The translations under genes were made by a program, and so were the position numbers. Below, piece after piece: positions 49,926 through 53,115 of a stretch of 64,000 nt of DNA (positions within the stretch are counted from its first letter, which is position 1; each line of letters opens with the position of its first letter). Source of the DNA: Escherichia phage EC.P1. The notes below the pieces were generated by a model, which saw nothing but the letters and a program-made list of their open reading frames with translations, had not been told where the DNA came from and made no database searches. The stretch lies in sequence record PQ657772.1; one strand, given 5' to 3'.

Positions 49926-52589
49926 ATGGCAGATACAAGTAAGAAATATGCCCAACAACAGTTGGGTCGTTTTGACCCTTCGTACCCACAACTAGCAACC
50001 GTGATGGATAACCGTGACCCAACTAAATCCGGTAAGCTAAAAGTGTGGATTCAAGGTTCACAAAGTGATAAAAATTCAAAAGAGTCATGGATTGAAGCAT
50101 CATACATGTCTCCATTCGCTGGCAAAACTCCAGGGATACCAAGTGCTGATGCTTATGGTCAATATCCAAAGGGATATGGTTTTTGGGCGGTTCCACCTGA
50201 TGTCGGATGTACTGTTGTTGTTATATTTGCACAAGCAAGAACATTCCAAGCGTATTGGATTGGTTGTGTTTATGACCAACGTATGAATACGATGGTTCCT
50301 GGGATGGCTACTGAAATAAGCAACTATGCTGGTACTGATATGCCATTACCCGTAACTGATTATGACCGTAATACAATTTCTACCAGTACTCAAGACAAAT
50401 ATGCAAACGTTCCAATTATTGCAGGTCTGAAAAAACAAAACTTACTTTATGATGAGGAAGCGGGTGTTGCTAACCGTAGCAGTACTCGCCAGACCACCAG
50501 TACTGTTTATGGTCTTTCCTCACCTCGTGGTAACAGTTTTATTATTGATGATGGTTACACAGAAGAAGAATTAACAGCACCTACATGGGATCAAGATCCA
50601 GATGGTTATCAGGATACCCAATTCAATAACCCAGTGAACGATACTCGTGTTGGTTCTCGTAAAAATGAAGGCGTTGTAATTAAAACACGTAGTGGTGCAC
50701 AGTTGTTGTTATCTGAAGCCTCTGGTGATGTTCTTTTAATTAACCGTGATGGTACTGCACGTATTAAATTCACTGGTGAAGGTGATATTGAAATGCACTG
50801 TGATAAGAATATTAACATTCGTGCAGGTCAAGATATTAACATGGTTGCTGGACGCTCATATAATATTGAAAGTGGAGCAGACTTCAATGCTCGTGTTGGT
50901 GCAAACACTAAACTAGATTTGGTTGGTGCATTGGATGCTAAAGTTGGTGGTCAGGTTGTTATTAACGCTGGAGCAGATTTACGTTTAGTAACAGCAGCTT
51001 CATTACGTATGCAAAGTGGTAGCAGTACTGATATAACTGCTGGTTCTAATGCGTCAATCTCTGCTGCTACCAGTGCTAATCTTATTGGTTCTTCATCAGC
51101 TATTATTAGTGGTGGTGGTCAAACTCTTACTGTTAACAGTGGTGGTAATAGTGGTACTGCTGAATTTAATGCACCAAACTTCCGCACCCCATCTGCTGGC
51201 TTGAATGATCATATACATGATATATCGGCTTGGGTTGATGCTGAGAATCACGGCAGTACGGTTGAACCTCCACGTCAAGGTGGTGGTAGTGGGAATAGTG
51301 AATCCCCAGTTCAACCTGAACCTGCTAATGATGTAGCTCCAACTTTAGCTCCAGTACAGGACACTGAAGCAATTCAATATGTAAATTATACAACAGAAAC
51401 AGAACAAGTTCAAACACAAGATTTAATGACTTCTGATCCTGGTATGACTGGTTATAGCATTACTTATGAAGGTCTTCATATGTTCATGCCGTGTAGTGGA
51501 ACCATTCGCCAATACGGTTATTGGGGGAAAGGTGTCCCGACTAGTGGTGGTGGTAAAGCTGATAGAAGTGGCTGGGAAATACAGTGCAAGGGTGATGTTG
51601 TAGCTCCAGATGGCGGTGTAGTTGTTATCACTAATGGTGCTTTATTGGTTCAACATAAGTCTGGATATAAATCTGTATTTTATAATATTCAATCAGATTT
51701 GCTCAATAAAGACGTTGTTCAAAAAGGTCAAGTTATCGGTAAAGCTAATGGTGTTATTCAATTTGAAATAAGAGTTACCTCTGCCAACGTACTAGGATTT
51801 AGTGGTTCAGTTGACCCTGGATTATTCTATGCATCCCAGACTGGTACAGGTTCTGAAGCGGGAAATAAAACATTAATTGCAGGACAAGCAACGAACCAAG
51901 CAGCACCGAAAGCTGTTGTTCAACCTTCTGTTGATAGTGATGAATTAGTTGTAACAACTAAAATTAAAACTATCGGTACTGGGTATTCTCAACGTGGTTC
52001 TCGTCATGTTCCTCGTCGTAGAAGAACACAACGTTCAGGTGGTACTCCAGCACCTACTGCACAAGAATCATACAATGTGGGTAATGTTGATAAGACTGCA
52101 ATTGATTGGAAAGTTGTTCCAGGTGATTCACAATTTATTTCTGAATTGAAAGAATATGAAGGAACAATGGCGTATCAACAAGCTAAAGGATATTACCGCA
52201 ATGGTAAATTCTGGAGATATTTGGACAGTCGTGGGTTCCCAACTATTGGTTACGGTCACTTGATTGTTAGTGGTGAAAACTTCTCTGGTGGGATTACCGA
52301 ACAGGAAGCCAATGATATGTTGGTGCGTGATAGTAGTAAGGCTATATATGACGCAAAATCCATTTACGCTTCTTATAAGATGAAAACACCTTACATGGCA
52401 CAACAAGTTCTATGTCAAATGGTATTCCAGATGGGTAAAGGTGGTGTAATGAAATTTAAGTCAATGCTATCTGAAATGGCAAAAGGTAACTACAAGCAAG
52501 CTGCTGCTCAAATTCGAAATTCAGCTTGGTATCGTCAAACTACACGCCGTGCTGAATTAATGGCACGTAGATTAGAGGCATGTCAATAA
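49926..52589 (+). CDS. baseplate hub/spike protein (gp5-like) with C-terminal T4-lysozyme (GH24) domain
   Basis: Gly-rich beta-helix-like repeats in middle; degenerate M23/LytM-like segment; C-terminal TIGYGH...MVFQMGKGG...SAWYRQTTRRAE matches T4 lysozyme. Confidence 0.7.
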   Translation: MADTSKKYAQQQLGRFDPSYPQLATVMDNRDPTKSGKLKVWIQGSQSDKNSKESWIEASYMSPFAGKTPGIPSADAYGQYPKGYGFWAVPPDVGCTVVVIFAQARTFQAYWIGCVYDQRMNTMVPGMATEISNYAGTDMPLPVTDYDRNTISTSTQDKYANVPIIAGLKKQNLLYDEEAGVANRSSTRQTTSTVYGLSSPRGNSFIIDDGYTEEELTAPTWDQDPDGYQDTQFNNPVNDTRVGSRKNEGVVIKTRSGAQLLLSEASGDVLLINRDGTARIKFTGEGDIEMHCDKNINIRAGQDINMVAGRSYNIESGADFNARVGANTKLDLVGALDAKVGGQVVINAGADLRLVTAASLRMQSGSSTDITAGSNASISAATSANLIGSSSAIISGGGQTLTVNSGGNSGTAEFNAPNFRTPSAGLNDHIHDISAWVDAENHGSTVEPPRQGGGSGNSESPVQPEPANDVAPTLAPVQDTEAIQYVNYTTETEQVQTQDLMTSDPGMTGYSITYEGLHMFMPCSGTIRQYGYWGKGVPTSGGGKADRSGWEIQCKGDVVAPDGGVVVITNGALLVQHKSGYKSVFYNIQSDLLNKDVVQKGQVIGKANGVIQFEIRVTSANVLGFSGSVDPGLFYASQTGTGSEAGNKTLIAGQATNQAAPKAVVQPSVDSDELVVTTKIKTIGTGYSQRGSRHVPRRRRTQRSGGTPAPTAQESYNVGNVDKTAIDWKVVPGDSQFISELKEYEGTMAYQQAKGYYRNGKFWRYLDSRGFPTIGYGHLIVSGENFSGGITEQEANDMLVRDSSKAIYDAKSIYASYKMKTPYMAQQVLCQMVFQMGKGGVMKFKSMLSEMAKGNYKQAAAQIRNSAWYRQTTRRAELMARRLEACQ

Positions 52590-52602
52590 ATATTTCAGTA
52601 CT

Positions 52603-52610
52603 ATAAATAA
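52603..52610 (+). promoter_or_regulatory. late promoter (TATAAATA) upstream of lysozyme gene
   Basis: TTTCAGTACTATAAATAATAAT ~20 nt upstream of ATG 52627. Confidence 0.5.
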
Positions 52611-52626
52611 TAATGAGGAAATCTTT

Positions 52627-53115
52627 ATGAGTAAATGGGAAATCAAAAATACCGACGAACAATTTTTTAAAGAAATTAAAGAATTTGAAGGTACTATTGC
52701 GTATCAGAAAAAACTTGGTTATTTTAAAAATGATAAGTTTTGGGTATATAAAGACAGTCTAGGTCTTGATACCATTGGTTACGGTCACCTTGTACTTAAG
52801 GGTGAAAGTTTCAAAAATGGACTCACTGAAGCAGAAGCTGATGCTCTCCTTATAAAAGATGCTCAGACCGCTTACAATGACGCAAAATCAATCTATGATC
52901 AATTTGGAATGACTGCTCCAGTACAGGTTCAGCGTGTATTGTGGTTTATGGTGTTCCAAATGGGTAAATCAAAAGTTTTAAATTTCAAAAAAGCGATGGC
53001 TGCTCTCGGTCGTGGTGATTATAAAACTGCTGGTAAAGAAATGCGTGATAGTTCGTGGTACAAACAAACCACATCCAGAGCGGAGAAGATGGCTCGCATC
53101 GTCGAATCCGTATAA
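52627..53115 (+). CDS. e: endolysin, T4 lysozyme family (GH24)
   Basis: EFEG, KDSLGLDTIGYGH, MVFQMGKSKV, SSWYKQTTSRAEKM match T4 lysozyme catalytic and core motifs; 162 aa. Confidence 0.85.
   Translation: MSKWEIKNTDEQFFKEIKEFEGTIAYQKKLGYFKNDKFWVYKDSLGLDTIGYGHLVLKGESFKNGLTEAEADALLIKDAQTAYNDAKSIYDQFGMTAPVQVQRVLWFMVFQMGKSKVLNFKKAMAALGRGDYKTAGKEMRDSSWYKQTTSRAEKMARIVESV

What the first reader, a model, noticed from the sequence alone, without database searches (positions are those of the whole stretch)
49926..53115. Multi-domain tail-associated lysin beside a stand-alone lysozyme paralog
The 887-aa protein has an N-terminal hub-like region, Gly-rich beta-helix-like repeats (about 50700-51200), a segment resembling an M23/LytM peptidase but with VIQFEIR where the HLHFE-type catalytic motif is expected, and a C-terminal GH24 lysozyme domain. 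The next gene (52627-53115) is a 162-aa lysozyme clearly paralogous to that C-terminal domain, suggesting a local duplication. In T4 the gp5 lysozyme domain is central, not C-terminal, and gene e is distant, so this domain order is different.
Basis: partly seen in the sequence, partly recalled or inferred. Interest (0 to 1): 0.6.

Follow-up and report, generated by a model that had tools for sequence, protein, structure and literature searches.

The report
Jumbo-phage tail spike carrying lysozyme cargo
This is the cell-puncturing tail spike of a known E. coli jumbo phage, with an inactive LytM domain and an intact lysozyme tethered behind its tip and a separate lysozyme gene next door; the finding is real, but this layout was already described in 2013 and 2017.

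Summary
The 887-aa ORF (49926-52589) reads, in order: gp5/VgrG-type OB fold, beta-helix, invariant HxH apex-like motif, disordered linker, LytM/M23-fold domain, second linker, GH24 lysozyme. The LytM domain lacks all zinc and catalytic residues in 45 of 45 homologs. The next gene (52627-53115) is a 162-aa lysozyme, 50% identical to the spike's C-terminal domain (E 5e-57).

The window is 99.6% identical to Escherichia jumbo phages BF17, Ecwhy_1 and fEgEco12, which are Asteriusvirus/Rak2-like. The unusual domain order, the possible M23 segment and the adjacent paralog were published for RaK2 (2013) and CBB (2017). The large protein was detected in phAPEC6 and CBB virions; the small one was not. 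The small protein's ortholog, LysUE1, is muralytic in vitro.

New here:
- The LytM domain is uniformly dead yet as conserved as the lysozyme.
- The enzymatic part lies after a P2 gpV-like HxH motif, so it reads as tethered cargo.
- The split between the two lysozyme copies is old (41% third-codon identity).
- The stand-alone gene is missing from three syntenic distant relatives.

Best reading: a central spike that delivers tethered lysozyme to the periplasm, plus an accessory soluble endolysin. Ordinary for this phage group; modest interest.

The parts
49926..52589 (+). 887-aa (95.6 kDa) baseplate central spike / tail-associated lysin gene
   Evidence: ORF. [quoted passage not shown] 99.6% nt identity to BF17, Ecwhy_1 and fEgEco12. 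Orthologs detected in virions by MS: phAPEC6 gp241, 95.9 kDa; CBB_240.
49992..50273 (+). OB-fold domain (aa 23-116), gp5 / VgrG / gpV type
   Evidence: Pfam PF04717, 29.8 bits, above the 23.8 cut-off. VgrG 9jg8 aligns to this region.
50274..50660 (+). Conserved segment of unknown structure (aa 117-245), at the position where T4 gp5 carries its lysozyme
   Evidence: Highest pairwise conservation of any segment, 0.64. Also conserved in the shorter spike homologs. AlphaFold2 pLDDT mostly below 50.
50661..51170 (+). Gly-rich beta-helix region (aa 246-415), presumed triple-stranded in the trimer
   Evidence: Pfam DUF2345 at aa 278-329. The N-terminal profile hits VgrG 9jg8 (E 2e-7) and contractile-injection-system spikes 7aef_q and 9gtr_q over this region. 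Short beta-strands with pLDDT 75-84.
51171..51269 (+). Apex-like segment (aa 416-448) with invariant H429-x-H431 (nt 51210-51218)
   Evidence: H429 and H431 are invariant in 45 of 45 homologs. The motif L-N-x-H-x-H resembles the P2 gpV C-terminus ...VLHTHKHPGDSGGTTGSPL. In P2 that HxH forms the Fe-binding histidine cage of the apex (bioRxiv 10.1101/2023.02.25.529910). Inferred here, not modelled.
51270..51461 (+). Linker 1 (aa 449-512), Pro/Gly/Ser/Thr/Gln-rich, predicted disordered
   Evidence: pLDDT below 50. Lowest conservation of any segment, 0.33.
51462..51890 (+). Degenerate (non-catalytic) LytM/M23-fold domain (aa 513-655)
   Evidence: pLDDT about 90-95. Foldseek hits to PrgK, DipM, EnvC, SpoIIQ, lysostaphin and LytM. 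Profile and Pfam hits. HxxxD, the catalytic His and HxH are replaced (around W550; I588; V610 and Q612) in all 45 homologs. Conservation 0.52, equal to the lysozyme's.
51891..52106 (+). Linker 2 (aa 656-727), containing a conserved island ELVV..IG..YSQRGSR.VPRRRR (aa 673-700)
   Evidence: pLDDT below 50 for aa 660-715. Conservation 0.36 overall, but V675, I683, G691, S692 and P696 are invariant or nearly so.
52107..52586 (+). C-terminal GH24 (T4-type) lysozyme domain (aa 728-887) with catalytic E745, D767, T773
   Evidence: Pfam PF00959, E 1e-10. The PDB profile search hits T4 lysozyme and T4 gp5 at about 1e-20. E745 and D767 are each kept in 44 of 45 homologs. pLDDT 85-92.
52602..52621 (+). 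TATAAATA (T4 late-promoter consensus, 52602-52609) and Shine-Dalgarno GAGGAAA (52615-52621) ahead of the small lysozyme gene
   Evidence: Sequence read directly. The motif lies 17 nt from the ATG. Its count in the window is not above chance, so this is suggestive only.
52627..53115 (+). 162-aa stand-alone GH24 lysozyme (catalytic E21, D43, T49), paralog of the spike's C-terminal domain
   Evidence: The UE-S1 ortholog LysUE1 was purified and is muralytic (PMC12805682). Not found in virion proteomes of relatives. Present beside the spike in 23 paired contigs. Absent from three syntenic distant relatives.

Best explanation
The 887-aa protein is the trimeric central spike of the contractile tail of a Rak2-like (Asteriusvirus-related) E. 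coli jumbo myophage.

Residues 1-448 form the piercing device: an OB fold that should dock on a hub, a beta-helix, and a P2 gpV-like HxH apex. Residues 449-887 are a tethered cargo: a flexible ~64-residue linker, a catalytically dead LytM domain, a second linker and an intact T4-type lysozyme.

On sheath contraction the spike crosses the outer membrane. This puts three copies of the lysozyme into the periplasm, where they open the peptidoglycan locally for the tail tube.

The dead LytM domain is retained for a non-catalytic job. It most likely binds peptidoglycan or regulates the neighbouring lysozyme through its remodelled groove.

The 162-aa gene downstream is a soluble copy of the same lysozyme subfamily. 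It was probably created by an ancient tandem duplication of the spike gene's 3' end in the ancestor of the core clade. It is expressed late, is not built into the virion, and acts as an (accessory) endolysin.

What is shown: the domain identities, the loss of catalytic residues, the conservation, the paralogy, the clade distribution, and (from the literature) virion presence of orthologs and in vitro activity of the small enzyme. What is inferred: trimer and apex geometry, delivery to the periplasm, the role of the LytM domain, and the duplication route.
For: Spike identity:
- OB fold and beta-helix hits.
- The authors' HHpred on the CBB ortholog gave a T6SS VgrG spike as best hit.
- The gene sits in a baseplate module: gp48-like, gp53-like, a 751-aa virion protein, the spike, the lysozyme, gp25, then a gp6-like wedge protein.
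- Orthologs were detected in virions.

Apex:
- H429 and H431 are invariant in 45 of 45 homologs.
- The motif resembles the P2 gpV C-terminus, whose HxH cages Fe. P2 spikes reach the periplasm.

Cargo:
- Both linkers are low-confidence and poorly conserved, while both domains are confident and conserved.
- Lysozyme Glu and Asp are each kept in 44 of 45 homologs.

Dead LytM:
- The fold is confirmed.
- All zinc and catalytic positions are substituted in every homolog.
- Its conservation equals that of the lysozyme.
- Precedents for regulatory dead LytM domains: the PrgK LytM down-regulates the adjacent muramidase, and the DipM and EnvC grooves bind autolysins.

Stand-alone copy:
- Catalytic triad intact.
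- The ortholog is active in vitro.
- Absent from virion proteomes.
- Its non-Rak2 relative P0214 sits next to a T4-type holin and spanin.
- Absent from three syntenic outgroups.
- Stand-alone clade monophyletic in 37 of 50 bootstraps.
Against: - No trimer model or structure was obtained. The apex region itself has low pLDDT, and hhalign to full-length P2 gpV aligned only the OB region. The apex assignment therefore rests on a short motif.
- No peptide-level MS data were found, so it is unknown whether the C-terminal cargo is kept intact in the virion or is processed.
- RaK2 gp078 was not detected by MS in the original study.
- The spike C-domain clade is poorly supported (9 of 50 bootstraps). 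P0076 groups with the core spikes yet lacks the stand-alone gene.
- The N-terminal extension shared by the two copies also occurs in a genuine endolysin of an unrelated phage, so duplication from the spike is not proven.
- Rak2-like phages have another predicted endolysin with a transmembrane segment (CBB_187), so the small lysozyme may not be the main lysis enzyme.
- Small proteins are easily missed by MS.
Confidence: 0.7

Rival explanations
1. The 162-aa lysozyme was not produced by duplication of the spike's 3' end. It was acquired separately as an endolysin gene of the same GH24 subfamily and landed next to the spike gene, perhaps by homology-guided recombination.
For: Roughly 150-165-aa lysozymes from other phages and from enterobacterial chromosomes are 45-52% identical to the stand-alone copy. 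That is about as close as the spike domain is. One of them, P0214, has the same N-terminal extension and sits beside a T4-type holin. Spike C-domain monophyly is weak.
Against: The gene lies directly downstream of its closest in-genome relative, on the same strand, and is colinear over all 159 residues. Syntenic outgroups have nothing at that spot. The NJ tree places the stand-alone clade among spike C-domains, not with the chromosomal lysozymes. The faster-evolving spike copy can explain the distance pattern (orthologs 0.56 vs 0.62).
Confidence: 0.3
2. [quoted passage not shown]
For: It lies inside the baseplate gene block between the spike and gp25. It may have a late promoter. MS can miss small, low-copy proteins.
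Against: The label simply reflects similarity to the C-terminal part of PHROG 13211. It was not detected in the phAPEC6 or CBB virion proteomes and is not confirmed as structural in any Rak2-like phage, whereas its neighbours were detected. It has no domain beyond the lysozyme fold. Distant relatives build the same baseplate module without it.
Confidence: 0.12
3. The LytM-like domain is an active peptidoglycan endopeptidase using non-canonical residues. The spike would then be a true two-enzyme lysin, as in phi29 gp13.
For: The fold is intact and highly conserved, with an invariant Arg and a nearly invariant Glu in the FEIR motif and a nearly invariant H577. M23 domains are common in phage virion proteins.
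Against: All three zinc ligands and both catalytic histidines are replaced in 45 of 45 homologs. The best structural matches include several proven non-catalytic LytM domains: PrgK, DipM, EnvC and SpoIIQ. No metal-free M23 catalysis is known to me (own knowledge).
Confidence: 0.05
4. The C-terminal half (LytM plus lysozyme) is cleaved from the spike during assembly or entry, for example at the conserved basic RRRR island, and acts as a free periplasmic enzyme, by analogy with T4 gp5 processing.
For: Linker 2 contains a conserved island ending in VPRRRR inside otherwise variable sequence. T4 gp5 is processed during assembly (own knowledge).
Against: There is no direct evidence. The basic cluster is not conserved in the most distant homologs. 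The published tables give the predicted molecular weight, not the gel size.
Confidence: 0.2

Closest known systems
[quoted passage not shown]
   Same: Same family, length and gene neighbourhood. Identity is 58% to GAP32 and fHe-Yen9-03 and 79-100% within Escherichia phages. The unusual order (OB fold, beta-helix, C-terminal lysozyme), the possible M23 domain and the similarity between the two lysozymes are already published. The small enzyme's muralytic activity has been shown for LysUE1.
   Different: Nothing essential. The published descriptions do not state that the LytM domain is catalytically dead, do not note the HxH motif ahead of the enzymatic part, and do not note that the small gene is missing from more distant relatives.
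Bacteriophage T4 gp5 (tail-associated lysozyme / central spike) and T4 gene e lysozyme
   Same: OB fold, beta-helix and a GH24 lysozyme in one spike protein. The lysozyme profile hits T4 gp5 and T4 lysozyme at about 1e-20. A separate soluble lysozyme gene also exists.
   Different: In T4 the lysozyme is inserted between the OB fold and the helix. Here it is C-terminal, after the helix and the apex motif, and is preceded by a dead LytM domain. T4's tip is a separate PAAR protein, gp5.4 (own knowledge). T4 gene e lies far from gene 5, whereas here the soluble copy is adjacent.
P2 gpV / phi92 gp138 iron-loaded spikes
   Same: OB fold, beta-helix, then a conserved HxH motif near the end of the helix. 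The local sequence resembles the P2 gpV C-terminus.
   Different: In P2 the chain ends 12 residues after the motif. Here about 455 more residues follow. Iron binding and apex fold were not tested.
'Evolved' T6SS VgrG spikes with C-terminal effector domains (e.g. Vibrio cholerae VgrG-3 with a peptidoglycan-degrading C-terminal domain; own knowledge)
   Same: OB fold and beta-helix followed by an enzymatic cargo on the C-terminus. The N-terminal profile hits VgrG structures.
   Different: No fused gp27-like module; a phage tail, not a secretion system; the cargo serves entry rather than killing a competitor.
Non-catalytic LytM factors (EnvC, NlpD, DipM, SpoIIQ, and the PrgK LytM domain)
   Same: LytM fold with a degenerate metal site and a conserved groove. 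PrgK combines a dead LytM domain with a muramidase in one polypeptide and uses it to damp that enzyme.
   Different: Phage virion context. Only part of the EnvC amidase-activation surface is recognisable: the R405 equivalent is invariant, the Y401 equivalent is variable, and the Y350 loop is deleted. No partner is known.

Membership tests
gp5 / VgrG / gpV-type central spike | N-terminal OB-fold domain (Pfam Phage_base_V) | tested here: met
   PF04717, aa 23-116, 29.8 bits vs cut-off 23.8.
gp5 / VgrG / gpV-type central spike | Beta-helix following the OB fold | tested here: met
   PF10106, 30.9 bits vs cut-off 30.7. Profile hits VgrG 9jg8 at E 2e-7 and spikes 7aef_q and 9gtr_q. Trimeric intertwining could not be modelled.
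gp5 / VgrG / gpV-type central spike | Component of the virion baseplate on the tail axis | not testable with these tools
   Literature only. Orthologs were detected by MS in phAPEC6 and CBB virions; RaK2 gp078 was not detected. No structure locates it.
T4 gp5 architecture specifically | Lysozyme domain inserted between the OB fold and the beta-helix | tested here: not met
   The lysozyme is at aa 728-887, after the helix (aa 246-415) and the HxH motif (aa 429-431).
GH24 T4-type lysozyme (both copies) | Pfam Phage_lysozyme above the gathering score | tested here: met
   42.3 bits and 37.3 bits vs cut-off 22.3.
GH24 T4-type lysozyme (both copies) | Catalytic Glu, Asp and Thr equivalent to T4 lysozyme E11, D20, T26 | tested here: met
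   E745, D767, T773 in the spike; E21, D43, T49 in the small protein. Glu and Asp are each kept in 44 of 45 spike homologs; Thr in 31 of 45.
GH24 T4-type lysozyme (both copies) | Muralytic activity | not testable with these tools
   Shown in vitro for the 162-aa ortholog LysUE1. Not reported for the spike domain.
Active peptidase M23 (LytM / lysostaphin type) | LytM fold | tested here: met
   Foldseek probability 1.0; target-normalised TM 0.58-0.68 to EnvC, DipM, LytM and StM23.
Active peptidase M23 (LytM / lysostaphin type) | Pfam Peptidase_M23 above the gathering score | tested here: not met
   18.1 bits (whole protein) and 23.1 bits (domain alone) vs cut-off 28.7. Relatives score higher, with best E 6e-11.
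Active peptidase M23 (LytM / lysostaphin type) | Zinc ligands HxxxD and HxH plus the catalytic His | tested here: not met
   Replaced in all 45 homologs: no conserved His or Asp around W550, I588 in place of the catalytic His, and V610/Q612 in place of HxH.
EnvC/NlpD-type amidase activators (degenerate LytM) | Degenerate metal site with a conserved groove | tested here: met
   hhalign to E. coli EnvC gives probability 92%, E 5.6e-7.
EnvC/NlpD-type amidase activators (degenerate LytM) | Residues needed for amidase activation (EnvC K321, V324, Y350, V353, Y401, R405) | tested here: inconclusive
   R405 corresponds to the invariant R616, but FEIR is generic to M23. Y401 corresponds to a variable position (Q612). 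The Y350 loop is deleted. The K321/V324 region is not reliably aligned.
P2 gpV / phi92 gp138 iron-loaded apex | Conserved HxH motif at the distal end of the beta-helix | tested here: met
   H429 and H431 are invariant in 45 of 45 homologs. The local sequence resembles the P2 gpV C-terminus.
P2 gpV / phi92 gp138 iron-loaded apex | Apex is the C-terminal end of the polypeptide | tested here: not met
   About 455 residues follow the motif.
P2 gpV / phi92 gp138 iron-loaded apex | Trimeric histidine cage binding Fe | not testable with these tools
   Only monomer prediction was available, and pLDDT is below 50 at aa 416-430.

The most novel reading that the evidence does not exclude
The dead LytM domain on the spike is a delivered regulator rather than a passive binding module. 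Once in the periplasm, its remodelled groove would either release the tethered lysozyme from self-inhibition (as in PrgK) or dock onto and switch on host autolysins, as EnvC, NlpD and DipM do. In the second case the phage would borrow the cell's own wall-cutting enzymes to open a path for its unusually wide tail tube.
Probability: 0.12. Interest if true: 0.65.

Novelty: already known. Interest (0 to 1): 0.25.

Why it matters
It shows how one group of giant phages solved wall penetration differently from T4. The enzymes hang behind the spike tip as tethered cargo, in the manner of evolved T6SS VgrG spikes, instead of sitting between the OB fold and the helix.

A strictly conserved but dead LytM domain next to a live lysozyme is a clean system for asking what such domains do in a virion: binding, self-inhibition or host-enzyme activation.

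Practically, the small paralog (LysUE1) is already being explored as an antibacterial enzyme. [quoted passage not shown]

Tried and rejected
- A third lysozyme in the window: a weak tblastn hit at 36178-36468 (E 1.7) lies inside a 578-aa head-type ORF and is spurious.
- Recent duplication or gene conversion: rejected. Nucleotide identity is 56% overall and 41% at third codon positions, and within-genome paralog identity equals between-genome paralog identity.
- Using the shared N-terminal W-x-V extension as proof that the small gene derives from the spike: rejected, because a holin-adjacent endolysin in an unrelated phage has the same extension.
- Full-length hhalign of the N-terminal profile to P2 gpV: only the OB region aligned, weakly. 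The apex inference therefore rests on the motif.
- EnvC-mimic test: no specific support.
- The 751-aa upstream protein as a gp27-like hub: no Pfam, NCBIfam or PDB sequence match, so it is left unassigned.
- TATAAATA enrichment: 6 sites observed vs 7.2 expected. Only the placement of the sites is suggestive.
- Peptide-level MS data to see whether the C-terminal cargo is present in virions: not available in the held supplements.

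
Full report
**What is there.** The two ORFs are exactly as described: 49926-52589 (+), 887 aa, and 52627-53115 (+), 162 aa. The window is a piece of an Escherichia jumbo myophage. The 3.2-kb region is 99.6% identical to phages BF17, Ecwhy_1 and fEgEco12 and about 84% identical to PBECO4-type Asteriusvirus phages. Full-length homologs (35-100% identity, 870-985 aa) occur in GAP32, fHe-Yen9-03, pEa_SNUABM_50, XaC1 and many metagenomic contigs. [quoted passage not shown]

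The neighbours form a baseplate block: gp48-like, gp53-like, a 751-aa virion protein, the spike, the small lysozyme, gp25-like, a 1153-aa wedge protein, then a giant ORF. Upstream and divergently transcribed are a gp55-like sigma factor gene and SbcCD genes.

**Anatomy of the 887-aa protein.**
- OB fold, aa 23-116: Pfam Phage_base_V, above the cut-off.
- aa 117-245: the best conserved segment (0.64 pairwise identity), but AlphaFold2 cannot model it.
- Beta-helix, aa 246-415: Gly-rich. It hits DUF2345 and VgrG and contractile-injection-system spike helices.
- Apex-like motif: L-N-x-H429-x-H431, invariant in 45 of 45 homologs. It resembles the C-terminus of P2 gpV...VLHTHKHPGDSGGTTGSPL. In P2 the HxH forms the iron-binding histidine cage of the spike apex.
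- Two segments with pLDDT below 50 and the lowest conservation: aa 449-512 and aa 656-727. They flank two confidently folded domains.
- LytM domain, aa 513-655.
- GH24 lysozyme, aa 728-887.

The enzymatic part therefore lies after the piercing device. It reads as cargo on flexible tethers.

**The LytM-like domain.** Its core is modelled at pLDDT about 95. Foldseek against the PDB returns only LytM/M23 domains at probability 1.0. These include the non-catalytic PrgK, DipM, EnvC, SpoIIQ and Csd2 domains and the active enzymes lysostaphin, LasA and LytM. A domain-only profile finds LasA (1.3e-6), SpoIIQ (3e-6) and DipM (2.6e-5) by sequence. Pfam M23 is hit by 21 of 24 family members. The window protein itself stays below Pfam's cut-off.

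Every zinc-ligand and catalytic position is substituted in all 45 homologs examined. Yet the domain is as conserved as the lysozyme (0.52 vs 0.51). It is a maintained, non-catalytic LytM domain.

Precedents for what such domains do:
- The PrgK LytM domain down-regulates the adjacent muramidase.
- The DipM and EnvC grooves bind and control autolysins.

A direct comparison with E. coli EnvC gave homology (probability 92%) but no specific retention of the amidase-activation surface. M23 domains in phage virion proteins are common.

**The two lysozymes.** Both pass Pfam's cut-off. Both keep the T4-lysozyme catalytic Glu, Asp and Thr. They are 50% identical over 159 ungapped residues, E 5e-57.

At the DNA level identity is 56%, and only 41% at third codon positions. 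Across 23 contigs that appear to carry both genes (paired by matching contig length), within-genome paralog identity (0.50) equals between-genome paralog identity (0.49). Orthologs are closer: 0.56 for the spike domain and 0.62 for the small gene. The stand-alone clade is monophyletic in 37 of 50 bootstraps. The split is therefore old, with no gene conversion.

Three more distant relatives (38-44% spike identity) keep the whole gene order but have no gene between the spike and gp25. The small gene was therefore added in the ancestor of the core clade, immediately downstream of its closest relative. That favours a tandem duplication.

This is not proven. Related lysozymes of 150-165 aa exist elsewhere at similar identity. 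One with the same N-terminal extension sits beside a T4-type holin and spanin in an unrelated phage.

**What the literature already says.**
- RaK2 paper (2013): calls ORF078 (886 aa) one of the largest baseplate-associated lysozymes, with a very unusual domain composition. It reports 66% similarity between the ORF073 and ORF078 lysozyme domains and names a third lysozyme, ORF029.
- CBB paper (2017): describes CBB_240 as gp5 OB fold plus a possible central M23 domain plus a C-terminal lysozyme, and contrasts it with T4 gp5. It notes the adjacent T4-type lysozyme CBB_239. [quoted passage not shown]
- phAPEC6 virion MS: found the 95.9 kDa ortholog and its neighbours, but not the small lysozyme.
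- UE-S1: the 162-aa ortholog LysUE1 was purified and lyses EDTA-permeabilised cells.

**Mechanism proposed.** The protein is the central spike. On contraction it crosses the outer membrane and carries three tethered lysozymes into the periplasm, where they cut peptidoglycan ahead of the tube. In P2, 12 residues follow the last His of HTHKH. If those residues fold back from the tip, as I recall from the published P2 apex structure (not checked here), the chain in this protein probably also leaves the apex pointing back toward the baseplate. A 64-residue linker is long enough to let the domains pack beside a roughly 100 Å helix in the virion (geometric inference, not tested).

The dead LytM domain most likely binds peptidoglycan or regulates the lysozyme. 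The small gene has its own Shine-Dalgarno sequence and a TATAAATA 17 nt upstream. It gives a soluble enzyme that acts at lysis, probably alongside the transmembrane lysozyme.

**Verdict.**
- the uniformly degenerate but selected LytM domain;
- the HxH motif ahead of the cargo;
- the age of the split between the two copies;
- the clade-limited presence of the small gene.

Interest is modest.

Noticed in passing
window 46557-46564 (+), 52602-52609 (+), 32850-32857 (-), 34059-34066 (-): TATAAATA, the T4 late-promoter consensus, lies 17-47 nt upstream of a Shine-Dalgarno plus ATG for four sizeable ORFs: the gp48-like gene, the 162-aa lysozyme, and ORFs of 391 aa and 371 aa. A gp55-like sigma factor gene lies at about 45629-46567 (-). 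The motif count is not above chance (6 vs 7.2 expected), so only the placement is suggestive.
   Followed up: partly
window 50274-50660 (aa 117-245 of the spike): This is the most conserved segment of the protein (0.64 pairwise identity). It is also conserved in the shorter spike homologs, yet AlphaFold2 gives pLDDT mostly below 50 and no family matches. It occupies the position where T4 gp5 carries its lysozyme domain.
   Followed up: partly
window 51942-52025 (aa 673-700): A conserved island, ELVVTTKIKTIGTGYSQRGSRHVPRRRR, sits inside the otherwise variable second linker. Several positions are invariant or nearly so (V675, I683, G691, S692, P696), and it ends in a run of four Arg. It could be a docking strand or a processing site.
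   Followed up: no
window 46510-47331 (+): The mechanical ORF call starts at TTG 46510. The annotated start in fEgEco12 corresponds to ATG 46600 (243 aa, gp48-like), which also fits the upstream TATAAATA.
   Followed up: partly
window ~57171-64000 (+), running off the end: A giant ORF follows the wedge gene. It is 3323 aa in fEgEco12 (g328, hypothetical protein). Equivalents of 3321-3508 aa occupy the same position in distant relatives L002-L004.
   Followed up: no
window 47657-49912 (+): The 751-aa virion protein directly upstream of the spike has no Pfam, NCBIfam or PDB sequence match. Its orthologs were detected in virions (phAPEC6 gp240, CBB_241). By position it may be the gp27-like hub partner of the spike.
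   Followed up: partly
proteins P0087-P0107 (alignment A3): Shorter spike homologs (about 500-580 aa) share the OB fold, the conserved middle segment and the helix, but lack the LytM and lysozyme domains. Some end in L-x-x-H-T-H-K-I-x-S-G-S-S-A-G, very like the P2 gpV C-terminus. Others carry a different conserved tail (…PTHEPWPHHENL).
   Followed up: no
locus L007, 6342-7498: A 165-aa lysozyme of the same GH24 subfamily (49% identical to the stand-alone copy, with the same N-terminal extension) lies immediately after a T4-type holin and near a T4-type spanin in an unrelated phage contig.
   Followed up: partly
window composition, about 46-48 kb: GC skew changes from negative to positive at about 46-48 kb. 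This coincides with the switch from minus-strand genes (SbcCD, sigma factor) to the plus-strand baseplate block.
   Followed up: no
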